From positions 1-49,284 of the IMG/VR virus record IMGVR_UViG_3300031555_003080: 49,284 bases of DNA; one strand, given 5' to 3'. The translations under genes and the position numbers were made by a program. The notes under the pieces are model-generated. The model saw only the letters and a program-made list of their open reading frames with translations. It ran no database searches and was not told the origin of the DNA. Origin of the DNA: a virus. Positions 9,701 to 25,011 of this stretch are shown here, piece by piece (within the stretch, counting starts at the first letter, position 1; each line of letters starts with the position of its first letter).

Positions 9701-11478
9701 TGAAGAAGTATTATGATTATATTGCTTCTAAACCTGAAGACAGTACTTCTTATAAGTTAACCATGAAAGATGTTAACTGGTCTCCTTATGTTCAGTTAAC
9801 TGAAGGCGCTGTTTATGATGCAGCTGAAACCAATTATTATATTAATGATAGACACTACGGATTTACTGCTTGGACTAAGAATGCTGCAGCATTTGATGAT
9901 CTTGTTCTTAATGGACAGCTTTATTTGTATACTGGTGAACCAAAGGTAAATATTGATGATAGCTTTATTGAAATGCTTCAAAATATTTACAATAATAAAG
10001 TTAACTTCGAAGACGCTTCTGCAAGCAATACTCGTCCAATTATTTCTGGTATTGTTTATGTTAATAATACAAATGCAGTTGAAGAGAGCTGGATTAGAAA
10101 TACTCTACAAGAGTTGTATCCAGATTTAACATTCTTCTTTGCTTCTGTAGAAAAAGCTTACTCTGCTGAATTCTTCTATAAAGATCCAGATACTGGAGTA
10201 GATAAATACGTTAAGTTTGCTAATGGTGATACCGCACCTTCTATTCAGAAAATTGCTAAATCTGCTTATGATGCAAATAATAACGTATGGTTTGAAGATC
10301 CTTTCACTCTTTACGCTCCTACAAGAGCTCACTATGACTTTAAGGGTTGGAGTACAGATCCCGATGCAGATCCAAGCACTGATACAGCTAACATTATCGA
10401 AAATGTTGATGAATGGAATGCATTAAAGATTAACTCTACTACTTACGACTATAAGTATTATGCAATCTTTGCAATTCACTCTTATGATATTATTTTCTAC
10501 GACGGCGATGGCTCTATCCTTGAAGGTTCTATCCTTCCTTATGGAACTGATGGAATTCCTGTTCCTTCTTTAGTTCCTGGATTAGATGATTCTGGTCTTG
10601 ATTTGTATGAAACTAATACCTTTGTGGGTTACACAGATAATACTTTAACTAATAAGATTGTAAATCCTGCTCAGATTACCGTTCGCGGTAAAATGGAATT
10701 CTGGCCTGTTTTTGATCAGGTAGATGTTTATACCAATATTCATCCAGAATATTTCCATGGAGATTTCTATACTGGAGAAACTGGAGTTAGAGGCGTTGAA
10801 CTTTACTTAGATAAGCGTGTTCAAGGCAAACTTACAATTCCAAAAGTATTTAAGATGGAAGATGGAAAAGAATATCCTGTATTGGCATTAAACGCAACCT
10901 TTGCAACAACCTATAATCCTGAATCAGGTAAGGGTTATTCAAATGGTGATAAACTTACTCACGTGTTCTTTGAAAAAGGAACTTCAATTGAGGCTTTCCT
11001 CGATTATGCTTTCTTTGGACACGGCACACAAACAGGTAAGAGCGTATTAACATATGTAGAGTTCCCAGATACTTTACTTACTATTGGATGGCAATGTTTC
11101 ATCCGTTGTAGTCTTTTAGATTATCGTGTAGTAACACAAGATCCGACAAAACTTCCTACCGCTGTTATTAGAGGCGCTAAGGTAAGACAGATTAGTGAGC
11201 AAGCATTCCAGCAAGCATTTAAATCATATTCTGTAACTGATTTCCAAATTGGATCAAGTGTTGAAACTCTTCAAAGTAGAGTATTTAATAATATTGGTAT
11301 TTCAGCTAATACCTTACTTATTGGTACTCCTAATGAAGATTCTAAATTAGTAATTTATACTAATGACAGAATTATGAATACCGCTTCTAATGTATTGTTC
11401 TACACTAGCAACTACACAGAAGATGATATTGGTACATTGCAACCTAACTTCCCAGGAGCTGCAATCCAAATCAAATAA
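3790..11478 (+). CDS. giant (2562 aa) virion protein, putative tail fibre / receptor-binding multidomain protein
   Basis: Uninterrupted 7.7-kb ORF with RBS AAAGGAG. Its N-terminus (IDALPITDGYVYYAVDTGRIYMD) is related to the N-termini of the 1993 and 14797 gene products. No catalytic motif was recognised. Confidence 0.8.
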   Translation: MSNTEFRPVRGTQATIDALPITDGYVYYAVDTGRIYMDKGDARISMGGGGAANGSSIYFGVYGKEIKEDSETKMYYYPIDGLEDKNAEPRVDDMILDDTGALYRIKRIGETSYACTLLPLSGNGSGPTIIRPNLTIASIPNPIIINGQPFEITFTVTSIVEESGSPLAEDMTVYWSLIDKDSGQVYYKGTPVGVKHNVPYNLPVGDYLKESAETVIELYAEALNHDEASAIRQATVTTVEMYLEHTSRYNPANRYSSTNVNLECNAIGNLSKILEWSVDGGVVESKVLTPNSTNPQTFTVPTALATHGYHTIQVDLYQNLGSADSPKKGISANPLIYEIAVTEAGNNTPIIWMGEYQDTYYNYDTIQIPFMVYNPANTSSVEVRLKKNDVEIDGSPRTIEEFSDYSYWQIADADLNKENYYSIECGKTIDTTVVREIKFKVIPDPNRDMTVVKQNSLQLNFDPAGRSNAEPTTKRASWSYTRGGTEYKAEFDNFNWYNNGWYTDSESKSTFLRISNGAKFTIPFEGGLEFGTSDTAKQSNAIELAFKVRNIQNYSNLITNVTRYNIPTAFGDDGKPTSYTSDASLYENEFKNQSLYTNYDAFLQARLEPDVYDNLQFREVQKNVNLSNAVFGFYSGNNNNAVGVCVGSQDTFFSNGYDTVNVSFVEGEMVYLSFVYEHTPAVGSKLYIYINGCITGVIESSITGDTGFKINTNEIVFNSETCDIDLYKMRIYNTALTVNDIVTNHAVDKKNITIYDQNGLAIENQALQEFQLDFKKIENWNKEHPELPLMPYIIYDTSTTTSDDKLPYAKANGATKIRVEFVNTPLDTAYARGELVKKAVEDGLLDELETDQETIDEAVRIYYKHHCPSWTSTMTTGDVVGLEVQGTSSEFYPRRNFKIKTKHGGECCWGDLEDDDGNVIGQGWTEEECLNIFMNKGPFEEIYEADKEKLKADEHYYGYEESRMFDGWYMNNYTNPTDRWTMKVDYMESSGSYNAGFASLVGNAYTKHPLQDYVKAGVLTNTGELENDVFGDMRWKDFRTSLLGFPVMAFHKRKVKGSSTGETECVFIGYYRMLLDKGSDQVLGFKAPKKIKHTLVDNQRLRDVAECWEFSTNARTFCSYKDPWDRVELSFKGPASEGDKVFIKLEGNKIGGPMVLNHFEPRYFAYEDYLKNDEDGFYNFGNLDQDTVDAMCDDIGIDRIDIAAEDAKYKAQDGAVYLMRNWEKVCKWIYSTNLDNVKSQGEYKVAPVGKVVYEPGKFYVMDDTVEGGYRISDDAFDPDETYFEIVDYEVEVEKTDEEGNPILDEDGNPEMETVTRQTYANAYATTSDLIYKPNTFYVDVSGAYSLCSDAEFDTSTTYYIFESLADEKIAEIADLLVEPATAWDENTEYYTYNRDAKVISGGGKTEAVTYVGKVSNERFAANNYYVAAPKKYASTTYKYDTKEYRTAKFMNELKDHFDLEYLATYFIMTEVFECYDSRGKNCMMASWGPLKEGGDYIWYPIFYDIDTQLGINNTGIPSFEFNVDATEAGNYSTSDSILWNNFYKFFKGSQILNKYKNLRNQDSTFDKLDNPPLQSVDYLEKWYTFNEEVTKNIADRGQRPLIATNLDMYYKYITITNPKAESQGVAYIPGSDGVYDYDKDGTYFYALQGDRSQSRRQFLTNRIEYIDSWLNQGNYQRGGNNRIRGRISANSGENGKTSDWWVETDLDPYWTDQEFGTKSHDFDAEYWLTLQPIRSAYVTAGDDSANYPSQKYDGKNPVKFKLGDIEAGVRKSNNYPEQLVYIYGMNQMSDFGEMNKLYWTEFYMEGNADHLTRLQLGYDGFSKTDPTVQWYNQKLNGIKLSDMPLLQEANFSRITLQTQTSLDLSASEKLENFRAVGTSNLTSVNFADGVALNTLYLPKSVTSLKLVQANLLDNLIAEGTAPTPVNNEDGTVTPPTQGLFIDGFFSDTFDSALTSIHFNGGALGFGTYQILKKYYDYIASKPEDSTSYKLTMKDVNWSPYVQLTEGAVYDAAETNYYINDRHYGFTAWTKNAAAFDDLVLNGQLYLYTGEPKVNIDDSFIEMLQNIYNNKVNFEDASASNTRPIISGIVYVNNTNAVEESWIRNTLQELYPDLTFFFASVEKAYSAEFFYKDPDTGVDKYVKFANGDTAPSIQKIAKSAYDANNNVWFEDPFTLYAPTRAHYDFKGWSTDPDADPSTDTANIIENVDEWNALKINSTTYDYKYYAIFAIHSYDIIFYDGDGSILEGSILPYGTDGIPVPSLVPGLDDSGLDLYETNTFVGYTDNTLTNKIVNPAQITVRGKMEFWPVFDQVDVYTNIHPEYFHGDFYTGETGVRGVELYLDKRVQGKLTIPKVFKMEDGKEYPVLALNATFATTYNPESGKGYSNGDKLTHVFFEKGTSIEAFLDYAFFGHGTQTGKSVLTYVEFPDTLLTIGWQCFIRCSLLDYRVVTQDPTKLPTAVIRGAKVRQISEQAFQQAFKSYSVTDFQIGSSVETLQSRVFNNIGISANTLLIGTPNEDSKLVIYTNDRIMNTASNVLFYTSNYTEDDIGTLQPNFPGAAIQIK

Positions 11479-15554: not shown

Positions 15555-16631
15555 ATGTCATTATATTTAGGACCTAACTTAATTAGTGGAGTTTTTACAA
15601 CTTTTCATACTACTACTTATGATACTGGCGATGCTACCGCTACAGCGCCAGATATTTTATCTGGTAAAACTGCTTATGTAAACGGAGCGAAAGTAACTGG
15701 AACTATGCCTCAAAAAACTGGTTCTGATATTACTAAAAGCGGAGCGTCCTTTACAGTTCCTTCCGGATATTATTCTTCTAGCTATACTGGTACAATTGCT
15801 AGTGGAGCTTTAAGAACTCCTACGTATAGCACTACAGCTTCTACTGGTCAAGTTACCGTTACTTACGGAGTCTCTACTGCAGGATATTTAGCAACAAGTT
15901 CACCAACTTGGACTTTTACTCCTTTTACAAAAAGAACTTCAGTAGTTACAACATATGGTAGTACTATAACTCCATCTACTACAGGAACAAAAACTATTAC
16001 TATTCCAGCGGGATATTATCCAACAGCAGAAACCCTTACTATTGCTAAGGCTGCCGCAGGAGGTGCGGCTCAAACAGGAACTATTTCAGCAAGCTCTAGG
16101 ACTTATACTATTTCAACCTCTTTTACTCCAAAAGGGTTTATGATGATTTCTTCAAGCTATTATTTTGATGGAGATTTAAATTTAATGTCTCTTTGGGCTT
16201 TTAATAGTTCTACTTCAGCTTCTGGTTATTATGAGACTAGTAGTAGCGGAAGTAGCGGAAGTGGCACTTATACCGTGGTAACCAGTGATTTGTTCGGTAG
16301 TTTATTTTATGATCCACCAGACAGTACAGCCAGTGACTATGAGCCTGCTGAATTAGTTCTACCAGGAGACTTTACATCAGCTATGTATGCCAGCGTTTTA
16401 GACCCATATTTGACTAATCCTGCTTCATACTATGTTGAAGGAAGTGACGCTACATTGGGTGATTTAGGATGGAGTGACTATGCAGTTTACAGCAGTGGCG
16501 GTGGAAGTAGTGGTAGTACTGGTGCATATCCTGTTTCTGGATGTTCAGTTTCTTATTCTTCTACTGGAATTACTGTTTCTGTAAATAGCTCTTACTATTG
16601 CCCAACAATGAGCTATGTTGTTTGGGGGTGA
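15555..16631 (+). CDS. Ser/Thr/Gly-rich tail-fibre-like protein
   Basis: 358 aa with RBS AAGGAGG and extreme S/T/G/Y content. It is adjacent to a fibre gene. Confidence 0.7.
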   Translation: MSLYLGPNLISGVFTTFHTTTYDTGDATATAPDILSGKTAYVNGAKVTGTMPQKTGSDITKSGASFTVPSGYYSSSYTGTIASGALRTPTYSTTASTGQVTVTYGVSTAGYLATSSPTWTFTPFTKRTSVVTTYGSTITPSTTGTKTITIPAGYYPTAETLTIAKAAAGGAAQTGTISASSRTYTISTSFTPKGFMMISSSYYFDGDLNLMSLWAFNSSTSASGYYETSSSGSSGSGTYTVVTSDLFGSLFYDPPDSTASDYEPAELVLPGDFTSAMYASVLDPYLTNPASYYVEGSDATLGDLGWSDYAVYSSGGGSSGSTGAYPVSGCSVSYSSTGITVSVNSSYYCPTMSYVVWG

Positions 16632-16635
16632 TTGA

Positions 16636-16893
16636 ATGTATTTTGGAAAACAATTGCATGAGAATTCTTTTTCTTTAATATCTTCATCTTTACCTATAAT
16701 GGCTTCAGACACTTTAATTGAAATTTCTGAAGAGGAATTTAATGAATTGTCAAAGACAATTAGATTGAAGCAAATTTTAGAAAAAAGAAAAAGACTTGAA
16801 GATTTAAATATTATTAAACGAAGAGAAGAAATTATACCAGAAATCGTTGAGCCTAATCAGTCCTTTGTAATTAATGAGGAGGATCAGGTATGA
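16636..16893 (+). CDS. hypothetical protein (85 aa)
   Basis: ORF with a GGGGGTG RBS. Its stop overlaps the next start (ATGA). Confidence 0.5.
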   Translation: MYFGKQLHENSFSLISSSLPIMASDTLIEISEEEFNELSKTIRLKQILEKRKRLEDLNIIKRREEIIPEIVEPNQSFVINEEDQV

Positions 16894-17567
16894 TTGATAT
16901 AAAAAAAGATGTAAAAATACAAGACTTATATAATTATTATTATATGATTTCATTGTATAATTTAATAAAATTTTATAATTGTAAATGGGAATTTTTATCT
17001 ATTAATGATAAAAATTTTTTAAATGGCACTAATCTTAAATATGATGATTTTTCTGTTAATAAATATTTAAGATTATATCAAAATGAGAAAATAAAATTAG
17101 CAGAAGATATTATAAATAATGGAATGTATTTTCCATATTTTGTATATGGACTTCCTGATGAACAAATAGATGATAATTCTGTAAGCATTGCTTTAGGAAA
17201 ACATAGATATTATAGTAAATTACTTTATCAAAATAAGTATGGTAAAATTGACACTAAATTTTTATTCATCTATGTTCCTAATAAACTTCCTCAAAATACT
17301 CCTATAGGTTTTAATAATTGTTTTTATAATTTAGACTCTGAAGGAAATTTAACTTTACATGATACAATTTTTGTTAATTCTAAAACTGAATTAATGAAAT
17401 ATTTTGATCGATTTGGAGGAAGTCTATCTGTTTTATTTTCCGATAATAGGATTAAAACCAATCCCATATTAAATGATGAAAATCTTTTTTCTCAATTTAT
17501 TAATGCTCCTTTAGATGAAAATAACATTCTTTTTAAGTATATTCCTAGTTCTGTTGACTTAAAATGA
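16890..17567 (+). CDS. ParB/Srx-like domain protein (paralog 1)
   Basis: 225 aa and extremely AT-rich. The motif EDIINNGMYFPYFVYG...ALGKHRYYSKL parallels DIVENGMYVPFLFGE...NGSHRLNSL in the 28280 gene, and resembles the ParB/sulfiredoxin DGHHR box. Confidence 0.55.
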   Translation: MIDIKKDVKIQDLYNYYYMISLYNLIKFYNCKWEFLSINDKNFLNGTNLKYDDFSVNKYLRLYQNEKIKLAEDIINNGMYFPYFVYGLPDEQIDDNSVSIALGKHRYYSKLLYQNKYGKIDTKFLFIYVPNKLPQNTPIGFNNCFYNLDSEGNLTLHDTIFVNSKTELMKYFDRFGGSLSVLFSDNRIKTNPILNDENLFSQFINAPLDENNILFKYIPSSVDLK

Positions 17568-17582
17568 AAAATATGTTATAAT
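17554..17582 (+). promoter_or_regulatory. sigma70-type promoter (TTGACT, 17-nt spacer, TG-extended TATAAT) for the NeuB-like gene
   Basis: TTGACT at 17554-17559, a 17-nt spacer ending ATGT, and TATAAT at 17577-17582. The -35 hexamer overlaps the last codons of the preceding ORF. Confidence 0.6.
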
Positions 17583-17603
17583 AAAGAAAAAGGAGTGTGT
17601 TAA

Positions 17604-18428
17604 ATGTATATTATTGCTGAAATTGGTATTAATCATAATGGAAATATTGAGACTGCTTTAGAAATGATTAAAGCAGCAAAAGATGCTGGAGCAACTTGTG
17701 TAAAATTTCAAAAAAGAAATCCTGACGTTTGCGTTCCAGAAGATCAAAAAAATAAACCTAAGACATTTCTTGGAGAGGAAATGACTTATTTAGAATATAA
17801 AAAGAAGATTGAATTTGGAAAAGAGGAATACGATCAAATTAATGCTCTTTGCAAAGAACTTCACATTGATTGGACTGCAAGTGTTTGGGACATGGATAGC
17901 GTTAATTTTATGCTTTGGTATAAAAATGATATTCCTTTTATAAAAATTCCAAGTGCATTGATTACAGATATTGAATTATTAAAAGCTGTTGATGCAACTG
18001 GAATCCCAATTCTTATGTCTAATGGAATGAGTTCTCAAGAACAAATTGATAAAGCTATTTCTTCTTTAACTCATTTAAGCGGGCTAATGCATTGTAATAG
18101 CTCTTATCCTTGCAATCCAAAAGAATTGGATTTAAATGTAATTAAAACTTATAAAACCATTTATCCAGGTCTCACAATAGGCTATAGTGGCCATGAGGTT
18201 GGACATTTCCCTACCTGTTTAGCTGTTGCCGCAGGTGCTCAAATTATTGAAAGACATTTTACTTTAGATAATAATATGGAAGGCACCGATCAAAAAGCAA
18301 GCTTAGATAAAAAGCATTTCGAAGCAATGTGCAAAGATATTTAGGGAATAGAAGAAATTATGGGGGGATATTTACCTAAAGTTTATCCCGCTGAACAAGA
18401 AGTTGCTAAAAAATTAAGAAAGGAATGA
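17604..18428 (+). CDS. NeuB-family (sialic / nonulosonic acid synthase-like) protein lacking a SAF domain, interrupted by in-frame TAG at 18342-18344
   Basis: N-terminal IIAEIGINHNG and the ..GYSGHE...IIERHFTLD..MEGTDQKASL.. motifs are typical of NeuB/PseI/SpsE. After the TAG the same frame continues GIEEIMGGYLPKVYPAEQEVAKKLRKE, matching the NeuB region IR.vE..mG.GiK.v.PaEq....rkS, before TGA at 18426-18428. Confidence 0.65.
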
Positions 18429-18434
18429 TTTTAA

Positions 18435-19142
18435 TTGGCTTTTCAAGTTAATAGTGAAAAAAATCTTTATCCTTTTAAATTATATTACTTAACACAATCT
18501 GCTTATGAAGAGTTGTTAAGAGGCGGTACAATTGGTACTCATGTCTTAGATGAAACAGCACTATATCTAACCGAAATTGATGAGAGTTTAGGTGCAGATA
18601 CAAAAGTATCTACTTCTGCCGATGCTACTACTACAACTCTTTATGTAACAGGATGCACTGGTACAACTACCGGTCCATTAAAATATAATTCCAAAGTATA
18701 TATTAACTGTGCTACTGGAGTTCTTTATGGTGCAGCATGGAACGACTATGCAGAATATCGTGTAGCTTCTGAAATTGAGCCTGGCCGAGTAGTATGCGAG
18801 AACGGTGACGATACATTAAGTCGTTCCTATGAACGCCTACAGCCTGGCGCGGCAATTATCTCTGATACTTTTGGATTTGCCATTGGTGAAAGTGGAGAAG
18901 CTAGAACTCCTCTCGCAGTTAGTGGTCGAGTATTAGCATATCCGTATGAAGACAGAGAATCTTACTCTCCTGGCGATGCTGTTTGTGCAGGCCCAGATGG
19001 AACTGTTTCTAAAATGACTCGTGAGGAAATTAGAGAATATCCAGAACGCATTATTGGAACTGTTTCTGCAATTCCAAACTATGAAGTTTGGGGAGAGAAC
19101 CAAATTCATGTTAATGGTCGAATTTGGATTAAAGTTAAATAA
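18435..19142 (+). CDS. tail-fibre-like / unknown virion-associated protein (235 aa, TTG start)
   Basis: Same frame as the NeuB ORF. The only start candidates are TTG codons; TTG at 18435 follows an AAAGGA RBS. The C-terminal region is Gly/Ala-rich and beta-like. The protein family is not recognised. Confidence 0.5.
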   Translation: MAFQVNSEKNLYPFKLYYLTQSAYEELLRGGTIGTHVLDETALYLTEIDESLGADTKVSTSADATTTTLYVTGCTGTTTGPLKYNSKVYINCATGVLYGAAWNDYAEYRVASEIEPGRVVCENGDDTLSRSYERLQPGAAIISDTFGFAIGESGEARTPLAVSGRVLAYPYEDRESYSPGDAVCAGPDGTVSKMTREEIREYPERIIGTVSAIPNYEVWGENQIHVNGRIWIKVK

Positions 19143-19160: not shown

Positions 19161-19205
19161 AAGGGATACTAATCATATGATTAGTATCCCTTTTTTTGTT
19201 TTTAT
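19161..19205. terminator. bidirectional rho-independent terminator
   Basis: Perfect 15-bp stem AAGGGATACTAATCA / TGATTAGTATCCCTT with a T-run on the + strand and an A/T-rich tract on the other side. It lies between convergent genes. Confidence 0.85.
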
Positions 19206-19912
19206 TCAAGAATTCGATTATAATTAATCCATGCATTCCTTACAGTATCATATTGTTTCATTGGAAAGAAAAGAACGTCATCATTTTCAAAAATAATATT
19301 GTCTTTATTTACAATTTTAATTTCTCCAATATTAATCAATAAACTTGGAGGTAAAAATAAAAAAGTTTTATGTTTTTGAAGAGGATCAATTGCTTTCTCA
19401 AAGGAAGAACGAAGGGTTTGACCATCAAACATATTTCCATCGGTTAAATGATAACATAGACATCTTTTAACGATATTAATATAGTTTAAATGATTAACTC
19501 TAACTCGTCTTTCGCCTCCAGCAATTTTAATGATAATATTATCATCTTGAATATTTTTCTTAATTTCTTTTAATACATCAATGATTTCTTCTCTATCCAA
19601 TGGTTTCATTAGAAAATAATCAACTCTTGCTTTTGCAGCTAAATGAGCTACAGAGGGGTCGCTACTTAAATAAATAAAACGAGCACCAACATCAATCTTT
19701 TTCATTCGACTTCCTAATTCTAAAACGTCCTCTTTAGAGTCCATATCCATAATATAAATATCATAACTCCCTGGCACAGTAATAAAAGTGTCAGGATCAT
19801 TAAAATAAGATACTTTAGCCATCGCTTTAACATCAATTAAAAAATCTTGAGTTATGCTTTTTAAATATTCGGTATCCTCTTTTATATCACTATAAATTGC
19901 AATAGATAACAT
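19202..19912 (-). CDS. response regulator with receiver domain and LytTR DNA-binding domain (AgrA/LytR family)
   Basis: The N-terminus has IAIYSD...DIYIMDMD (phospho-acceptor Asp), ..YLSSDPS.. and ..LMKP.. The C-terminal region (from IKIAGGERRVRVNHLNYIN, running on through LFLPPSLLIN) looks like a LytTR domain. There is no adjacent histidine kinase. Confidence 0.75.
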   Translation of the reverse strand: MLSIAIYSDIKEDTEYLKSITQDFLIDVKAMAKVSYFNDPDTFITVPGSYDIYIMDMDSKEDVLELGSRMKKIDVGARFIYLSSDPSVAHLAAKARVDYFLMKPLDREEIIDVLKEIKKNIQDDNIIIKIAGGERRVRVNHLNYINIVKRCLCYHLTDGNMFDGQTLRSSFEKAIDPLQKHKTFLFLPPSLLINIGEIKIVNKDNIIFENDDVLFFPMKQYDTVRNAWINYNRILE

Positions 19913-19934
19913 ATAGCCACTCCTTTCATAATTT

Positions 19935-19963
19935 TATTATATCACATTTTTGCGACAAAATCA
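19935..19963 (-). promoter_or_regulatory. sigma70-type promoter for the LytTR regulator (TTGATT, 17-nt spacer, TATAAT), bracketed by the inverted repeat TATCACA/TGTGATA
   Basis: The reverse complement reads TTGATTttgtcgcaaaaatgtgaTATAAT, about 22 nt upstream of the RBS AAAGGAG. TATCACA at 19939-19945 and TGTGATA at 19971-19977 form an inverted repeat around it. Confidence 0.55.
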
Positions 19964-20240
19964 AATAATTTTGTGATAAAAACAAATAAAATCCTACTTG
20001 CGTTTTTGAAATGAAAAATTAAAAATGTGAATTTGCAATCAAAAATAAAATTTGTGTAGGCGAAAAATTATCCAAAATTTTTGTGAGTTCTTGAGATTTA
20101 TCGTGCGCCATTAAAACTCATATAATAATGGAAGGGTGAGAGAGAAAAATATTTTAACAAAGGAGGGCGCCTATATGAATTATAATTACCCTTAGTCACA
20201 GTTTCAAACTCAATCTGTTGGATATGGAGGTTACAGGCCA

Positions 20241-20603
20241 GTGCCACAGTATCCGCAATGGGTTCAAACTACAAATACTTCTCAACCAGTGAGACCGGTA
20301 TCCTCGATTGAAGAAGTAAAAGCCTGCCCGATAGATTTCGATGGTTCAGTATTTTATTTCGCTGATGTGGCCAATAAGCGAATTTATACTAAACAAATCA
20401 ATCTTGATGGAACTGTATCAATCAATTTATATGAATTAAAAACTGACCAGCCTGCTGACTCGTTTCAATATGTAACTAAACAAGAATTTGAAAATGTTGT
20501 AGCTCAATTGTATAATACTTTTAATCCGTTACTAAAACCAGTAGAAGATGTACAGCAGCCTGCGGCACAGCCTACACAACAAAAATCAACTTTTGAATTT
20601 TAA
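20241..20603 (+). CDS. hypothetical protein (120 aa)
   Basis: GTG start preceded by GGAGG. No recognisable motif. Confidence 0.5.
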   Translation: MPQYPQWVQTTNTSQPVRPVSSIEEVKACPIDFDGSVFYFADVANKRIYTKQINLDGTVSINLYELKTDQPADSFQYVTKQEFENVVAQLYNTFNPLLKPVEDVQQPAAQPTQQKSTFEF

Positions 20604-20617
20604 GGAGGGAGTTCTAA

Positions 20618-20851
20618 ATGTTTACTATACCTTGGTTCTTAGGAATGATTAAGAAAGGTTATAATCCTCAGCAAGTTATGATGAATGTCCTGGAGTCAAT
20701 GAAAGGGACTCCCATGGGTGATAATTTAATCAATCTCGCTCATTCCGGAAACACTAAAGAAATTGAAAAAATTGCTCGAAACATTGCCGCTCAAAGAGGC
20801 GTTGATTTCGACAAAGAATTCGAAGCTTTTCGTAAGCAATACGGATTCTAA
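20618..20851 (+). CDS. hypothetical protein (77 aa)
   Basis: RBS AAGGAGGG 8 nt upstream. Confidence 0.55.
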   Translation: MFTIPWFLGMIKKGYNPQQVMMNVLESMKGTPMGDNLINLAHSGNTKEIEKIARNIAAQRGVDFDKEFEAFRKQYGF

Positions 20852-20900
20852 TTAAAACAAAACAAATGGAGACAAAATAAAACAAATGGAGGTAAATAAT

Positions 20901-21638
20901 ATGTTTAAAGGAAATGGTGGATATAATTTATCTGATATTGCTGCTGTAACCCGTGGCAGCAATGGAGACGGCCTGTGGGGTGGAGATGGAGCTTGGTGGA
21001 TTATCCTTCTCTTCTTATTTGCTGGATGGGGTAATGGAGGATACGGTGGAGGCCTTGGTGGCGGAAACGCTAGAGATGCGGTATCTTATGGTTTCGACAT
21101 TAATGGTCTTGAGAATGGTATTCGTGGTTTAGAACATGGCATTTGTGATGGTTTCTATGATATGAATACTAGCTTAATGACCGGTTTTGGCAACACCGCA
21201 ATGGGTGCAATGCAAAACACTAATGCTATTATGAGTCGTCTCTGTGACATGAGTGCTGACCAAGCAGCTTGCTGCTGCGAGACTCAGCGTTTAATTGAGC
21301 GTGGTTTATGCGAAGTAAATTATAATATCTTAACTCAATCTAATGCAACCAATACAAATATTTCTAATGCAGCAAGAGATATTATTGAAAACAATAATAA
21401 CGGAGTTCGTTCTATTCTTGACTTCTTAACTCAAGATAAAATTGCTACTCTTCAGGCAGAAAATCAGGCTCTTCGTCTTACTGCTTCTCAACAGGCTCAA
21501 AATAGTTATTTAATTGATCAATTGGGTGCTAAGGCTCCAATTCCTGCTTATGTAGTTGCAAATCCTAATGCAATCTATGGTGGCTATGGTTACTATAACG
21601 GTGGCTGCTATGGTACATTTAATAACTGCTGCAATTGA
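20901..21638 (+). CDS. Gly-rich membrane protein with a Cys-rich C-terminus (about 245 aa)
   Basis: Start ATG at 20901 is preferred over 20886 because of GGAGG spacing. It has one predicted TM helix (WWIILLFLFAGW), GGYGGGLGGG tracts, CCCE and a C-terminal GGCYGTFNNCCN. Confidence 0.55.
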   Translation: MFKGNGGYNLSDIAAVTRGSNGDGLWGGDGAWWIILLFLFAGWGNGGYGGGLGGGNARDAVSYGFDINGLENGIRGLEHGICDGFYDMNTSLMTGFGNTAMGAMQNTNAIMSRLCDMSADQAACCCETQRLIERGLCEVNYNILTQSNATNTNISNAARDIIENNNNGVRSILDFLTQDKIATLQAENQALRLTASQQAQNSYLIDQLGAKAPIPAYVVANPNAIYGGYGYYNGGCYGTFNNCCN

Positions 21639-21653
21639 TAAGGAGGTATGAGT

Positions 21654-22073
21654 ATGGAAATTATTGCTAATGCATTACAAACTGTTGCAGCAAATCAAAA
21701 TGTTTATTTCACTGATACTATCACCGGTGGGAGTATGTCAATCTCCCACCGCTCTAATAGCGGACTTGTGAGTTTGTTTGGCAACACAAATCAATGTCGT
21801 GCAAGATTTAAAATAACTTTTGGCGGAAATATTGCAATTCCAGCAGAAGAGACGGTGGGACCAATTTCGTTGGCAATTGCAATTGATGGAGAGGCAGTTC
21901 AATCTACAACTATGACAGTAACTCCTACCGCAGTAGATACTTTCTTTAATGTATTCTCTGCAATTTTCGTTGATGTTCCAAGAGGAAATGTTGAAACTAT
22001 TAGTGTGAAAAATATTAGTGACATTCCAATAGAATTAGAGAATGCAAATTTAATTATTGAAAGAGTTGCTTGA
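21654..22073 (+). CDS. hypothetical protein (about 139 aa), beta-rich
   Basis: RBS AAGGAGG. The second ATG is preferred on spacing grounds. Confidence 0.5.
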   Translation: MEIIANALQTVAANQNVYFTDTITGGSMSISHRSNSGLVSLFGNTNQCRARFKITFGGNIAIPAEETVGPISLAIAIDGEAVQSTTMTVTPTAVDTFFNVFSAIFVDVPRGNVETISVKNISDIPIELENANLIIERVA

Positions 22074-22087
22074 AAGGAGGAGTGAAG

Positions 22088-22660
22088 ATGTCTATTGAAA
22101 GAATGAAAACAATGAAAGAAGCTTTTATGTGTGCCGTTGAAGGTCAGATGTATAATCTTGCCGAGGTTGATGCAGAAGAGCTTGGTGAAGTTGTAGATAT
22201 GATTAAAGATTTAAGTGAAGCAATTTATTATTGTGAAGTAACAAAAGCAATGGAAGAATCTGAAAAGAATGGTAGTCAAGAGTCAATGTACTACACTCCA
22301 ATGTATTATTCCGATCGCGGAAGCGGAAACGGCAGGTCTTCATCTAATAGTAATTCCACCTCTTCTGGATCGATGAATGGAAATAATGGTACTAGTAGTT
22401 CACAGTATTATGAAAGAGAATATCCTCATGCATTTATGGACGGAAGAGAAGGAAAGAGTTATCGTTCAAGAAGAATGTATATGGAAGCTAAAGAAACTAA
22501 ACAAGATAAAGCATCACAAATGAGAGAGTTAGAAAAGTATATGCAAGAATTAACTCAAGATGTTGTTGAAATGGTTGAAGGTTCTTCTCAAGAAGAAAAG
22601 AGTTATTTAAGTAAAAAGATTTCTGCACTTGCAACAAAACTTTCTCAATTAAGTGATTAA
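22088..22660 (+). CDS. hypothetical low-complexity protein (about 190 aa)
   Basis: RBS AAAGGAGG, then ATG (MSIERM..). Central Ser/Asn/Gly-rich low-complexity segment. Confidence 0.5.
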   Translation: MSIERMKTMKEAFMCAVEGQMYNLAEVDAEELGEVVDMIKDLSEAIYYCEVTKAMEESEKNGSQESMYYTPMYYSDRGSGNGRSSSNSNSTSSGSMNGNNGTSSSQYYEREYPHAFMDGREGKSYRSRRMYMEAKETKQDKASQMRELEKYMQELTQDVVEMVEGSSQEEKSYLSKKISALATKLSQLSD

Positions 22661-22685
22661 AATTAACGGAGAAGATTGGAAGATT

Positions 22686-22916
22686 ATGTTAGCGTCTTCC
22701 AATCACCCTTCTTTGCAACGTCCAAATGGTTCTTTCACTCTTGGATGTTGTGATGATAATTTAAAAACTATTTATATTGCGGATGGGCTTACGGATTTTT
22801 ATTTTAAGAAAGTTTTGTGTCATGAGCTTGTTCATGCGTGTATGTATAGTTATAATGTCGAATTAAATGATTATCAAGAAGAAGTTTTAGCTGATTTAAT
22901 AGCCACTTATGGATAG
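22686..22916 (+). CDS. small HExxH zinc-metallopeptidase-like protein (ImmA/SprT-like?)
   Basis: Contains CHELVHACMY (HExxH). The start is uncertain (GTG at 22653 or ATG at 22686). It ends with TAG. Confidence 0.4.
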   Translation: MLASSNHPSLQRPNGSFTLGCCDDNLKTIYIADGLTDFYFKKVLCHELVHACMYSYNVELNDYQEEVLADLIATYG

Positions 22917-23012: not shown

Positions 23013-23543
23013 TTATTCTTCGTCTGGTTTAATTTCAAGTTTTAAAACTCTTTCATAATATTCTTGAGCTTGACCATTGCCGCCTAAACCATGATATAAT
23101 TTATACATCTCGGTGATTTGTTCAAAGTCAGCTTCTGTAATGTAATTATCTCTTAAATGAGATTTACATAATTGAATGAGTCTAAACTTATAAGAGTTGA
23201 TAATCATATTCAAATTGCGGACATTATCATCCTCAACTTTTCTCAAATCGCTATACATAACAGCATGAGTTGCATCAGCCTCAGATTTAAGCTGATTCAC
23301 CATGGTTTTTGCATTATTATCAACCCCAACAATTTCAGCTTTTAATCTGGTTAATTCATCTACTATAGGCTCAATCTCATCAACAATCATCTGTCTATAT
23401 TGACGATTTTGGTCTGCTTTTTGCATTTCCTCGAGTTTCTTGTTTTTACTCCAAAGATGTTTACAAAAAGCTAGTGCGCCAGCGGAGACCAGACCGAAGA
23501 AAATCTCCAGCGCATACTTAGTAAGAATTTCCATGTGAAACAT
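23013..23543 (-). CDS. membrane-anchored coiled-coil protein (176 aa), function unknown (holin/spanin-like?)
   Basis: N-terminal TM helix (ALEIFFGLVSAGALAF) followed by a charged coiled-coil. RBS GGGAGG. It is the lone minus-strand gene among + strand genes. Confidence 0.55.
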   Translation of the reverse strand: MFHMEILTKYALEIFFGLVSAGALAFCKHLWSKNKKLEEMQKADQNRQYRQMIVDEIEPIVDELTRLKAEIVGVDNNAKTMVNQLKSEADATHAVMYSDLRKVEDDNVRNLNMIINSYKFRLIQLCKSHLRDNYITEADFEQITEMYKLYHGLGGNGQAQEYYERVLKLEIKPDEE

Positions 23544-24060: not shown

Positions 24061-25011
24061 ATGGCTAATCTAGTTAAAGCTGCCGATATTAGCTTAGATT
24101 CATCTTCTTGGTACCAAAGACTAAGGGCAATTCAATCAAGAATTGAAACAGGCGCTTGGACTGGAGTTACTATGACTTTGACCACTGACCCCGGTATTAA
24201 TACCGGGGCAATGGCCTTAGATGATCATTTAAATAATTTAATTTCAGCTATTTCAGCAGCTACTTCAAATGTTTTTTTGGCTTATGCCGACAAATCACAA
24301 TTACCGAGTTCAGTGTCTCCAGGCACACTAATTAAACAAATTACTTATGATGGAATTGATGCCACTTTAGATTCCATGGAATAGATTTGTAGTAATTGTT
24401 CAACATATCAGACATTCGCTAATAACAGTGGCGATTCGACATATACTACTTATAATAATACTTGTGCAACCAACAGCACTTATGAAAATACCTGTGATAC
24501 TAACTCAACATATTCAGATACCTGTGGAACTAACTCAACGTATTCAGATACCTGTGATACTAACTCAACATATTCAGATACCTGTGATACTTATTCTACT
24601 TATTCTGATACTTGTGCAACTTATTCCACTTATTCAGAAATTGCTACAAATGGTACTGAGATTACAGGTACAGCATATTCAACTGAAAATGCAAATTTAA
24701 GTGTTGCTTCTGGAGCCTATAGTTATAATTGTACTAATTATTGTGCTACTTATAATACAAATGACACATATCTAGAAAGTCAAACTTATGACACTTATTT
24801 AGAGAGTTTGACATATGAAACATATTTAGAAAGCTTAACCTATGAGACTTATTTAGAGAGTTTAATTTGTGAAACTTATGCTGAATCTTTAACTTATTCA
24901 ACATATCTTGAATCTCAAGTTTGCGCGACATATGCAGAGTCTCAAGTATATTCAACTTTTACTCAAAGCGCAGGAAATTCTACAGATGCTACATTTGCAG
25001 TTGTGACTTAA
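24061..25011 (+). CDS. candidate RiPP precursor-like gene: 107-aa N-terminal part, in-frame TAG (24382-24384), then a 209-codon Cys/Tyr/Ser/Thr/Asp-rich tandem-repeat region
   Basis: RBS AAGGAGGG before the ATG at 24061. Past the TAG the same frame stays open to TAA at 25009-25011 and contains no ATG or GTG. It encodes six TC(D/A/G)T(N/Y)STY(S/E)(D/N/E) decapeptide repeats followed by TY(E/D/S)TY(L/A)ES(L/Q) nonapeptide repeats. The repeats differ by synonymous codons (Ser as agt/agc/tct/tca, Leu as tta/ttg/cta/ctt, Glu as gag/gaa), indicating selection at the peptide level. Confidence 0.55.
24385..25011 (+). repeat. tandem 30-nt and 27-nt coding repeats (decapeptide and nonapeptide units)
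   Basis: Direct repeats such as cagatacctgtgatactaactcaacatatt (three near-identical copies) and acttatttagagagtttgacatatgaaacatat-type units. Confidence 0.8.

What the first reader, a model, noticed from the sequence alone, without database searches (positions are those of the whole stretch)
19202..19912. Orphan phage-encoded LytTR-family response regulator
This is a complete receiver domain (phospho-acceptor Asp in DIYIMDMD, conserved Ser and Lys) fused to a LytTR DNA-binding domain. That is the AgrA/ComE/LytR architecture normally paired with a quorum-sensing histidine kinase, yet no kinase or peptide-signal genes are nearby. A phage could use it to eavesdrop on host agr/com-like signalling through a host kinase, in order to time lysis or express the accessory cassette.
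Basis: partly seen in the sequence, partly recalled or inferred. Interest (0 to 1): 0.65.

Follow-up and report, generated by a model that had tools for sequence, protein, structure and literature searches.

The report
Kinase-less atypical LytTR regulator in phage
A large gut phage that reads the TAG stop codon as glutamine carries a bacterial-style receiver–LytTR response regulator as a conserved core gene with no partner kinase in view and a decaying phosphorylation site, so it most likely acts as the phage's own transcription factor and not as a listener on host quorum signals.

Summary
The ORF is real (19202–19912, minus strand, 236 aa). It is a receiver + LytTR protein. Pfam alone barely detects this (Response_reg 20 bits, below the cut-off; no LytTR hit). 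An AlphaFold model matches full-length ComE and the AgrA LytTR domain. A family profile bridges to Pfam-positive REC–LytTR proteins and to ComE, LytR and 3d6w by sequence.

The window is phage DNA, and no kinase lies in the 44 ORFs scanned or within ±10 kb at five fully sampled related phage loci.

The receiver is not complete. Ser replaces the first acidic residue, so 0 of 80 close relatives keep the canonical five-residue active site, against 60 of 82 cellular-type relatives. Syntenic phage orthologues have lost the phospho-acceptor Asp itself (Val, Gly, Thr). The LytTR half is much more conserved (80% versus 57% identity).

A unique, one-orientation array of CRCRA boxes overlaps the gene's own consensus promoter and fills the shared intergenic region. 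It includes a tandem 21-bp repeat.

Best reading: an atypical, probably phosphorylation-independent phage transcription factor that regulates itself and the divergent operon. Host-kinase eavesdropping is not excluded but is not favoured. The clade reads TAG as Gln.

The parts
19202..19912 (-). Regulator gene, 236 aa: monocistronic REC-LytTR response-regulator homologue
   Evidence: ORF list and sequence. More than 310 homologous clusters. AF2 model pLDDT 86.9. Foldseek top hit is full-length ComE 4cbv, E 1e-11.
19547..19912 (-). Receiver (pseudo-receiver) domain, aa 1-122. Has S8 (canonical Asp missing), D9, D56, S83, F100, K103-P104.
   Evidence: Pfam Response_reg 20 bits, below GA 30.2. Family profile hits the LytR receiver 6m8o at 1.6e-6 and 3.7e-19. 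Strand/helix positions. Residue statistics.
19217..19540 (-). LytTR DNA-binding domain, aa 125-232. About 35 invariant residues in the close family, including RCLCYH, FDGQ, LRxSF and PPSLLIN.
   Evidence: No Pfam hit for the sequence itself. 67/90 profile-linked relatives are Pfam LytTR. Profile hits 3d6w at 2.8e-9 and ComE at 2.8e-16. Fold matches 4g4k, 4xqj and 3d6w. 80% vs 57% identity relative to REC.
19918..19926 (-). Ribosome-binding site AAAGGAGTG of the regulator gene
   Evidence: Read from the sequence. A GGAGG-type RBS is conserved in relatives.
19936..19964 (-). The regulator's own sigma70/sigmaA-type promoter: TTGATT, 17-nt spacer, TGaTATAAT (extended -10)
   Evidence: Promoter scan gives 10/12 with TG. 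Conserved almost base for base in about 15 relatives.
19948..19989 (.). Tandem 21-nt direct repeat (86% identical). It carries two TC[A/G]CAAAA half-sites 21 bp apart that straddle the -35 hexamer, at about -26 and -47.
   Evidence: the repeat finder family D1. The zero-mismatch pair is unique in the 49 kb. Register is conserved in relatives.
19949..20110 (-). Array of CRCRA boxes, all in the regulator's orientation. Six match the search pattern, with cores at 19954, 19975, 20002, 20056, 20085 and 20105. A seventh, at 20029, matches only the looser pattern. Candidate operator array shared with the divergent promoter.
   Evidence: 6 sense vs 0 antisense in 262 bp against a background of 1.9 per kb; the only 262-bp stretch in the window with >=6. 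60 sense vs 3 antisense across 18 related loci, with recurring 29-27-27-21 spacing. Binding by the regulator is inferred, not shown.
20121..20142 (+). Putative -10 (TATAAT) of the divergent operon plus a highly conserved purine-rich leader, AATGGAAGGGTGAGAG. There is no good -35: TTGAGA lies 24 nt upstream.
   Evidence: Unique in the window. GGAAGGGTRAGAG occurs once per locus in 14 related loci, always in this intergenic region. No Rfam match and no significant fold. The promoter assignment was read from the sequence and is an inference.
20175..20603 (+). First gene of the divergent conserved operon. The true start is ATG 20175 behind AAAGGAGGG, with an in-frame TAG at 20193-20195 read as Gln.
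   Evidence: Alignment of the N-termini (MNYNYPqSQFQ vs MNYNYTQPQFQ; L010 has TAG at the same codon). Re-call of ORFs with TAG as sense. phrog_21718, unknown function.
19161..19192 (.). Perfect 14-bp-stem palindrome flanked by T-runs. A bidirectional intrinsic terminator that ends both the regulator gene and the convergent gene 18435-19142.
   Evidence: Terminator scan, both strands.

Best explanation
The gene encodes a phage transcription factor that descends from bacterial AgrA/ComE-type (REC-LytTR) response regulators. In this phage lineage it has become a kinase-less, atypical regulator.

Shown. It has the two-domain REC-LytTR architecture. It is a core gene at a fixed position in a clade of large TAG-to-Gln recoded phages, between a conserved operon of small genes and the variable tail-fibre module. 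It has its own consensus host-type promoter and terminator. Its receiver lacks one of the five catalytic residues, and orthologues lose more of them, including the phospho-acceptor. The LytTR domain is under much stronger constraint.

Inferred. The receiver now serves mainly as a dimerisation or regulatory scaffold and no longer as an obligatory phospho-switch. The LytTR domains bind the one-orientation CRCRA box array. That array includes a 21-bp-spaced pair straddling the -35 of the regulator's own promoter, which would repress or limit its own synthesis. Boxes further along lie in front of the -35-less divergent promoter, where binding could activate or time the conserved operon 20175-22916.
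For: Architecture. AF2 model pLDDT 86.9. Foldseek: ComE 4cbv 1e-11, AgrA LytTR 4g4k TM 0.81. Profiles: LytR REC 6m8o 3.7e-19, ComE 2.8e-16 end to end, 3d6w 2.8e-9. 74/90 and 67/90 profile-linked relatives are Pfam Response_reg and LytTR.

Phage core gene. Same synteny in L001, L003, L005, L006, L025 (29% identity) and L029. No close-clade copy in 185,579 species genomes.

No kinase. None in the 44 window ORFs scanned. None within +-10 kb at L001, L003, L005, L006 and L025, nor in the shorter stretches recovered for L029 and L030. In contrast, cellular relative P0200 is followed directly by a HATPase_c_5 kinase.

Receiver decay. Canonical quintet in 0/80 close relatives, 4/31 phage-type representatives and 60/82 other representatives. 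S8 in 75/80; position 9 is D50/N20/E5; position 83 is S48/G22/C10. D56 is replaced by V, G and T in syntenic or phage-context orthologues P0126, P0141 and P0146.

Constraint asymmetry. LytTR 80% vs REC 57% identity; entropy 0.67 vs 1.38 bits.

Operator candidate. Tandem 21-nt repeat over the promoter. The perfect pair is unique in 49 kb. The box array is unique in the window and orientation-biased 60:3 in relatives. A 21-bp periodicity of about 9-bp direct repeats is the established LytTR site geometry (AgrA, ComE; established knowledge).

Classification. It is a pseudo-receiver/atypical RR by the definition in PMC12632262.
Against: In the window's own subclade D56 (79/80), K103 (77/80), P104 (80/80) and the aromatic switch residue (78/80) are among the best-conserved receiver positions. 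This copy also keeps DD2 (D9) and S83. A weakened but real phosphorylation site is therefore possible. PMC12632262 notes that substitutions at DD, T or K do not necessarily abolish phosphotransfer.

At least one TAG-recoded, hence phage, relative (P0129) has a fully canonical receiver.

Binding of the protein to the box array is untested. The box pattern was defined after looking at this region. Looser versions of the paired motif are not enriched elsewhere in the window (12 observed vs 7.8 expected). The most distant orthologues show few such boxes.

About 72 kb of the contig was not seen, so a phage kinase elsewhere is not excluded.
Confidence: 0.5

Rival explanations
1. Eavesdropping. The regulator is still a working phospho-acceptor. 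It is phosphorylated by a host AgrC/HPK10-type kinase, so phage gene expression follows the host's peptide quorum signal.
For: D56, K103-P104, F100, D9 and S83 are present in this copy, and D56/K103 are near-invariant in the close subclade. The nearest cellular relatives pair with HATPase_c_5 kinases. Named relatives come from Clostridia/Oscillospiraceae, where such kinases are common (prevalence is from established knowledge). A canonical-receiver version exists on a TAG-recoded contig. Substitutions at DD do not always abolish phosphotransfer (PMC12632262).
Against: DD1 is Ser throughout the subclade. DD2 is Asn or Thr in 23/80, and the T position is Gly or Cys in 32/80. Syntenic orthologues lack the phospho-acceptor altogether, so the orthologous function does not require phosphorylation. 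The N-terminal part of helix alpha1 (positions 10-16), which normally carries kinase-specificity residues, is the most variable stretch of the protein. No host or kinase is identified.
Confidence: 0.2
2. Metabolic sensing without a kinase. The weakened receiver autophosphorylates from small-molecule donors such as acetyl phosphate, or responds to another input. One candidate is redox sensing via the clade-specific invariant Cys151/Cys153/His155 on one face of a LytTR strand. This would couple phage transcription to host physiology.
For: The D/K pair is retained with no kinase in view. The RCLCYH motif is invariant (80/80) and the two Cys are specific to the close clade. Redox-controlled orphan atypical regulators are documented (RitR, Hp1021; PMC12632262).
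Against: This is purely inferential. DD2 and T variability argue against any phosphorylation chemistry being essential. No metal or redox site was tested, and model coordinates could not be inspected.
Confidence: 0.12
3. Host-directed factor. The protein targets host LytTR-controlled promoters (agr-like, bacteriocin or competence regulons), or acts as a decoy or phosphate sink for a host kinase. It would reprogramme the host and leave phage genes alone. The box array would then belong to something else, such as another regulator or replication iterons.
For: No additional paired sites are detectable in 49 kb of phage DNA. The array is a one-orientation direct-repeat cluster in an AT-rich gap, which is also what iterons look like.
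Against: The LytTR domain and the box array are co-conserved across phages whose tail-fibre modules, and hence probably hosts, differ. The array overlaps the regulator's own promoter, the classic autoregulatory layout. Cumulative GC skew has its only extremum near 29 kb and none at 20 kb, so there is no origin signature here.
Confidence: 0.1

Closest known systems
AgrA (S. aureus) / ComE (S. pneumoniae) / LytR: REC-LytTR response regulators of peptide quorum-sensing and LytS-type two-component systems
   Same: Same two-domain architecture and folds: ComE 4cbv full length, AgrA LytTR 4g4k/4xqj, LytR REC 6m8o. Candidate operator made of short direct repeats at 21-bp periodicity.
   Different: No adjacent HPK10/LytS kinase, AgrB/D or peptide genes. 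DD1 is Ser. Below Pfam thresholds for both domains. The LytTR signature 'F-R-x-H-R-S-x-x-V-N' is 'F-L-F-L-P-P-S-L-L-I-N' here (the canonical signature is from memory). The proximal repeats straddle the -35 and do not lie upstream of it. Phage-encoded.
CdtR of Clostridioides difficile (orphan LytTR response regulator in the binary-toxin locus)
   Same: An orphan REC-LytTR regulator of a Clostridial element, encoded next to the genes it controls and without a linked kinase (PMC4944984).
   Different: CdtR is chromosomal and regulates toxin genes. No canonical LytTR boxes were found at its further targets. The present protein is a phage core gene with an obvious repeat array at its own promoter. 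Its sequence relationship to CdtR was not tested.
Pseudo-receiver / atypical response regulators (as defined by PMC12632262; e.g. RitR, Hp1021, ChxR, FrzS)
   Same: Lacks at least one of the five receiver active-site residues, is an orphan, and has its output domain retained.
   Different: The review covers bacterial proteins. This is a phage lineage that displays a graded series from a canonical receiver (P0129) through a D-retaining pseudo-receiver (this protein) to aspartate-less versions (P0126, P0141, P0146). Whether the review describes any LytTR-type examples was not checked.
Phage phiCDHM1 agr cassette (agrB, agrC, agrD without agrA)
   Same: Phage carriage of part of an agr-type signalling system, with the missing partner presumed to be supplied by the host (PMC11945551).
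   Different: It is the mirror image: phiCDHM1 has the kinase and the signal but no regulator, while this phage has the regulator only. phiCDHM1's genes are accessory, whereas this gene is a conserved core gene of its clade.
Uncharacterised viral database entries: 'Response regulator [Siphoviridae sp. ctiV651]' A0A8S5S4H7, PHROG 8810, and stand-alone phage LytTR proteins (Pseudomonas phage PMBT3, Brevibacillus phage Davies)
   Same: A0A8S5S4H7 matches over both domains (Foldseek E 2e-14, 243 columns). PHROG 8810 matches end to end (3e-9).
   Different: Only 15% identity to A0A8S5S4H7. None has a described function, operator or receiver analysis. The stand-alone LytTR proteins lack the receiver.

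Membership tests
Response regulator receiver domain (CheY-like, PF00072) | (beta-alpha)5 fold | tested here: met
   AF2 model: E2-7, H11-27, E32-37, H40-45, E52-56, H63-73, E78-83, H86-94, E99-102, H107-124. TM 0.75-0.83 to many solved receivers.
Response regulator receiver domain (CheY-like, PF00072) | Passes the Pfam gathering threshold | tested here: not met
   20 bits vs cut-off 30.2, E 8e-4. The family profile does reach solved receivers: 6m8o at 1.6e-6 and 3.7e-19.
Response regulator receiver domain (CheY-like, PF00072) | Phospho-acceptor Asp at the end of beta3 | tested here: met
   D56, 79/80 in the close family. Lost (V/G/T/N/H/L) in more distant phage orthologues.
Response regulator receiver domain (CheY-like, PF00072) | Acidic pair (DD) after beta1 that binds Mg2+ | tested here: not met
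   S8-D9. Position 8 is S in 75/80 and never D or E. Position 9 is D50/N20/E5.
Response regulator receiver domain (CheY-like, PF00072) | Ser/Thr at the end of beta4 and Lys after beta5 | tested here: met
   S83 and K103-P104 in this protein. In the family, position 83 is S48/G22/C10 and K103 is 77/80.
Response regulator receiver domain (CheY-like, PF00072) | Actually phosphorylated on Asp | not testable with these tools
   Needs phosphotransfer, acetyl-phosphate or Phos-tag assays.
LytTR DNA-binding domain (PF04397) | Sequence match to the family model | tested here: inconclusive
   The protein's own sequence gives no Pfam hit at E<=1. However, 67/90 relatives linked by its family profile are Pfam LytTR, and the wider profile hits the 3d6w LytTR domain at 2.8e-9 and ComE across both domains at 2.8e-16.
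LytTR DNA-binding domain (PF04397) | All-beta LytTR fold | tested here: met
   Foldseek: 4g4k_B TM 0.81, rmsd 2.1 A over 104 columns; 4xqj TM 0.79-0.80; 3d6w TM 0.69-0.71.
LytTR DNA-binding domain (PF04397) | Binds pairs of about 9-bp direct repeats roughly 12 bp apart | tested here: inconclusive
   A candidate site exists: a tandem 21-nt repeat with TCRCAAAA half-sites over its own promoter. Binding was not tested.
agr/com-type quorum-sensing two-component system | Cognate HPK10 (HATPase_c_5) kinase encoded with the regulator | tested here: not met
   No kinase domain in the 44 window ORFs scanned. None within +-10 kb at L001, L003, L005, L006 and L025, nor in the shorter stretches recovered for L029 and L030. 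Present next to cellular relative P0200. The remainder of the contig was not seen.
agr/com-type quorum-sensing two-component system | Signal-peptide precursor and processing/export genes (AgrD/AgrB, ComC/ComAB) | tested here: not met
   No such Pfam families among the window ORFs. Very short peptide genes would escape this test.
Pseudo-receiver / atypical response regulator (definition of PMC12632262) | Recognisable receiver fold lacking at least one of DD, D, T, K | tested here: met
   DD1 = Ser8. Definition quoted.
Pseudo-receiver / atypical response regulator (definition of PMC12632262) | Orphan (no linked kinase) | tested here: met
   As above, within the sequence available.

The most novel reading that the evidence does not exclude
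The phage lineage captures a natural series in which a host-derived quorum-sensing response regulator is converted step by step into a kinase-independent viral transcription factor. The series runs from a canonical receiver, through a D-retaining pseudo-receiver (this copy), to aspartate-less forms. This intermediate may still accept phosphate from a host AgrC-type kinase. In that case the timing of the conserved divergent operon, and indirectly of the neighbouring host-range module, would be tuned by host cell-density signalling. That would be a true phage 'eavesdropping' response regulator in a stop-codon-recoded gut phage.
Probability: 0.15. Interest if true: 0.8.

Novelty: new variant of a known kind. 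Interest (0 to 1): 0.5.

Why it matters
Phages are known to tap bacterial communication through one-component receptors (VqmA-phi, LuxR-type), through arbitrium peptides, and in phiCDHM1 through agr kinase and signal genes. A two-component response regulator fixed as a core gene of a large, widespread clade of gut and rumen phages has not been characterised.

The evidence here changes the question from 'which host kinase does it listen to?' to 'how does a receiver domain work once a virus has cut it loose from its kinase?'. The clade offers canonical, intermediate and aspartate-less versions of the same orthologue at the same locus. That makes it a ready-made comparative system for the open problem of how pseudo-receivers are regulated.

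It also supplies a concrete, testable operator (the CRCRA box array) and a candidate early/late control point in phages that switch genetic code during infection.

Tried and rejected
- Pfam, NCBIfam and PADLOC scans of the protein alone were nearly uninformative: Response_reg below threshold, no LytTR hit, no defence-system hit.
- A nucleotide search of 10 kb against 50,697 phage records found nothing. A protein search of the regulator there gave one weak fragment. The clade is therefore absent from the annotated phage collection, and I could not read a complete annotated genome to look for a kinase.
- Walking beyond the window with end-proteins returned only short duplicate contigs.
- IMG/VR gave only 3 related loci. 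GTDB species genomes gave none.
- I considered that the 28 homologues of 206 aa were natural N-terminal truncations lacking beta1. This was rejected: they are code-11 gene-calling artefacts caused by an in-frame TAG at codon 10.
- A search for a wider regulon using the paired half-site motif found no enrichment: 12 observed vs 7.8 expected, and the single-box 9-mer was not enriched.
- I considered the box array as replication-origin iterons. This is not supported by GC skew, whose extremum is at about 29 kb.
- I tested the conserved leader of the divergent operon as a structured or known RNA. There was no Rfam hit and the fold z-score was 0.24.
Full report
**Observation**

It is preceded by AAAGGAGTG. 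It is followed by a perfect 14-bp-stem palindrome with T-runs on both sides (19161-19192), which can terminate both this gene and the convergent gene 18435-19142. The gene is monocistronic and is the only minus-strand gene within a long run of plus-strand genes.

**Domain identity**

Standard models barely see the architecture.
- Pfam gives Response_reg at 20 bits (cut-off 30.2) and no LytTR hit even at E<=1.
- NCBIfam gives only a trace of LytR.
- PHROG 8810, of unknown function, matches end to end.

Three further lines establish the architecture.
1. An AlphaFold2 model built from 47 homologues is confident (pLDDT 86.9). It shows a (beta-alpha)5 domain followed by an all-beta domain with a terminal helix.
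2. Foldseek puts full-length ComE (4cbv) first at E 1e-11. It separately matches the AgrA LytTR domain (4g4k: TM 0.81, rmsd 2.1 A; 4xqj) and the B. cereus LytTR domain 3d6w.
3. The close-family profile hits the S. aureus LytR receiver 6m8o (1.6e-6). It also reaches 897 cluster representatives at E<=1e-10 in an exhaustive search.

Of 90 aligned representatives, 74 are Pfam Response_reg and 67 are Pfam LytTR. The wider profile hits ComE across both domains (2.8e-16), 3d6w (2.8e-9) and 6m8o (3.7e-19) by sequence. The protein is therefore a divergent but genuine REC-LytTR homologue.

**Is it phage, and is it orphan?**

The window encodes a PolIII-alpha-type polymerase, NrdD/NrdG, RecJ, Dda and DnaB helicases, primase, dUTPase, guanylate kinase, RuvC, a tail lysozyme and tail-fibre-like proteins. 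Its polymerase is 38-39% identical to those of Phass-1, Enterococcus EF1-like phages and SPbeta-like phages. No HisKA/HATPase family appears among the 44 ORFs scanned.

In related contigs of 62-201 kb the regulator always occupies the same place. The order is:
- PolIII-alpha, Gmk, NrdD, NrdG, ..., dUTPase, RuvC;
- a conserved block of five or six small genes;
- a roughly 300-bp gap;
- the regulator, transcribed divergently;
- a variable tail-fibre module that includes a 2,100-2,600-aa giant.

This holds down to 29% identity (P0141/L025). No kinase lies within +-10 kb in any of them. No close-clade copy was found in 185,579 species-representative genomes.

By contrast, a cellular relative on a dockerin/SLH-rich contig (P0200, about 25% identity) is followed directly by a 433-aa HATPase_c_5 kinase. 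Named relatives come from Oscillospiraceae and Clostridia MAGs. The gene is thus a long-standing core gene of a phage lineage, derived from AgrA-like regulators of Clostridia-type bacteria. It is orphan as far as the available sequence shows. About 72 kb of its own contig could not be retrieved.

**The receiver on close inspection**

Secondary-structure positions assign S8-D9 to the DD pair, D56 to the phospho-acceptor, S83 to the T position, F100 to the aromatic switch, and K103-P104 to the K position. The first acidic residue is missing.

Residue statistics among 80 full-length close relatives:

| Position | Role | Residues observed |
|---|---|---|
| 8 | DD1 | S 75, never acidic |
| 9 | DD2 | D 50, N 20, E 5 |
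| 56 | Phospho-acceptor | D 79 |
| 83 | T position | S 48, G 22, C 10 |
| 103 | K position | K 77 |

Frequency of the canonical [DE][DE]-D-[ST]-K quintet:

| Group | Canonical quintet |
|---|---|
| Close relatives | 0/80 |
| Representatives with the phage-type LytTR motif (P189-S190) | 4/31 |
| Remaining, cellular-type representatives | 60/82 |

Orthologues confirmed in phage synteny or phage-like context have lost the acceptor itself. P0126 has Val, and also Glu in place of the Lys. P0141 has Gly and P0146 has Thr. One relative on a TAG-recoded contig (P0129) is fully canonical.

The LytTR half is far more constrained than the receiver half: 80% vs 57% identity to the window protein, and 0.67 vs 1.38 bits of column entropy. 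By the definition in PMC12632262, a receiver lacking any one of the five residues is a pseudo-receiver and its protein an atypical response regulator. The same paper notes that such substitutions need not abolish phosphotransfer.

**Regulatory DNA**

The regulator's promoter is a near-consensus host-type promoter: TTGATT, 17 nt, TGaTATAAT (19964-19936). It is conserved almost base for base in about 15 relatives.

Overlapping it is a tandem 21-nt direct repeat (19948-19989, 86% identity). The repeat places two TC[A/G]CAAAA half-sites 21 bp apart, at about -26 and -47, on either side of the -35 hexamer. The zero-mismatch pair is unique in the 49 kb.

More CRCRA boxes continue across the whole 262-bp gap, all in the regulator's orientation. 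There are six against none in the opposite orientation, with a background of 1.9 per kb. No other 262-bp stretch of the window reaches six. In 18 related loci the same orientation bias is 60:3, and close relatives repeat the 29-27-27-21 spacing. The most distant orthologues show few such boxes.

Short direct repeats at 21-bp periodicity are the established site geometry of LytTR regulators such as AgrA and ComE. That statement rests on established knowledge; binding here is an inference.

The divergent operon has a TATAAT (20121-20126) but no acceptable -35: TTGAGA lies 24 nt upstream. Boxes sit at roughly -28, -48 and -77 from its presumed start. I read this from the sequence, and it is an inference.

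The layout suggests self-limitation at the regulator's own strong promoter and activation or timing of the divergent, activator-type promoter. GC skew gives no origin signature here, since the only extremum is near 29 kb. This argues weakly against reading the array as replication iterons. No wider regulon is detectable in the window.

**Unexpected context: stop-codon recoding**

In 18 of 20 related loci the regulator gene contains one to seven in-frame TAG codons at positions where homologues have Gln, including the invariant Q165. The 28 '206-aa' homologues are code-11 truncation artefacts.

The window belongs to the same clade. The first gene of the divergent operon starts at ATG 20175 behind AAAGGAGGG and reads MNYNYP-TAG-SQFQ. 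This aligns with MNYNYTQPQFQ in relatives and with a TAG at the same codon in L010. The window's own regulator gene has no TAG.

Under the published model that recoded phages translate TAG-containing genes only after the code switch (bioRxiv 10.1101/2021.08.26.457843), most relatives could make the full-length regulator only after suppression is active. This copy, in contrast, can be translated at once. The timing implications are inferred.

**Comparison with what is known**

- It works like, and is homologous to, AgrA/ComE/LytR regulators.
- It fails the system-level features of an agr/com module: there is no kinase and no signal genes.
- It fails one of the five receiver active-site criteria.
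- Its closest conceptual relatives are orphan LytTR regulators such as CdtR of C. difficile (PMC4944984) and bacterial pseudo-receiver regulators (PMC12632262).
- It is the mirror image of phage phiCDHM1, which carries agrB/C/D but no regulator (PMC11945551).

Phage REC-LytTR proteins already sit unannotated or generically annotated in databases. Examples are A0A8S5S4H7 'Response regulator [Siphoviridae sp.]' (Foldseek E 2e-14) and PHROG 8810. A review notes LytTR proteins in Pseudomonas phages. No paper in the searched library contains the phrase 'phage-encoded response regulator'. I found no characterised example in the few literature searches I ran.

**Verdict**

The 'eavesdropping' mechanism is possible but disfavoured. 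I commit to an atypical, kinase-independent phage transcription factor acting on the local box array (confidence about 0.5). Host-kinase phosphorylation stands at about 0.2, with other inputs or targets sharing the rest. This is a new variant of a known kind, of moderate interest.

Noticed in passing
window 20175-20603 (TAG at 20193-20195); related loci L001-L030: The phage clade reads TAG as Gln. 18 of 20 related regulator genes carry 1-7 in-frame TAGs. The window's divergent neighbour gene has a TAG at codon 7, aligned to Gln in relatives. Five window ORFs that 'end' in TAG under code 11 extend when TAG is read as sense: 17604-18344 becomes 18428, 22653-22916 becomes 22970, 24061-24384 fuses with 24428-24700, and 23013-23543 and 29243-29752 gain N-terminal extensions. 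No suppressor tRNA lies in the window.
   Followed up: partly
homologues P0013, P0043, P0099, P0115 etc.; L005/L006 9911-10621: The 28 database homologues of 206 aa are gene-calling artefacts. The true gene starts 30 codons upstream at TTG and contains a TAG at codon 10. L005 comes from an NCBI MAG labelled Methanobrevibacter sp. (GCA_017646885.1). That contig is evidently a mis-binned phage, and its tail module is fragmented under code 11.
   Followed up: yes
window 20127-20142 (+), and once per locus in 14 related loci: A purine-rich element, AATGGAAGGGTGAGAG, sits just downstream of the divergent operon's putative -10. It is conserved even in a 27%-identity orthologue's locus (L030). It is single-copy in the window, has no Rfam match and has no significant RNA fold. 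Its function is unexplained.
   Followed up: partly
window 19445-19462 (-), aa 150-155 of the regulator: The RCLCYH motif is invariant (80/80) on one beta-strand of the LytTR domain. The two Cys are specific to the close phage clade, whereas R, Y and H are shared with cellular relatives. It may be a metal or redox site.
   Followed up: no
window 16500-18500: GC drops to 27.5% over a NeuB-family sialic-acid-synthase-like gene (17604-18344/18428; Pfam NeuB 9.5e-63) and an unknown 225-aa gene. These sit at the end of the tail-fibre module next to YadA-head and hyaluronidase-like proteins. The module is replaced by different genes (LRR_5 giant, Laminin_G_3, Phage_tail_C) in relatives, so it looks like a swappable host-range or surface-glycan cassette.
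   Followed up: no
window 22653-22916 (+): The last small gene of the divergent operon encodes an 87-aa (105-aa if TAG is read through) protein with a CHELVHAC (HExxH) motif. This is reminiscent of small zinc metallopeptidases of the ImmA/IrrE or SprT kind. There was no Pfam or PADLOC hit.
   Followed up: partly
window ~29200: Gene orientation switches from plus to minus at 29222/29243, and cumulative GC skew peaks there. This could be a replication terminus or origin-type inflection, or simply a transcription-coupled skew.
   Followed up: no
window 19954-20105: The boxes sit at nearly mirror-symmetric distances from the two divergent promoters: about -25/-46/-73/-100 from the regulator's presumed start and about -28/-48/-77/-104 from the operon's. 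All boxes point the same way, so their orientation relative to each promoter is opposite.
   Followed up: partly
window 3790-11478 (+): A 2,562-aa ORF with no in-frame TAG. Relatives have 2,100-2,600-aa counterparts with LRR_5 repeats at the same position. It may be a giant tail or host-interaction protein.
   Followed up: no
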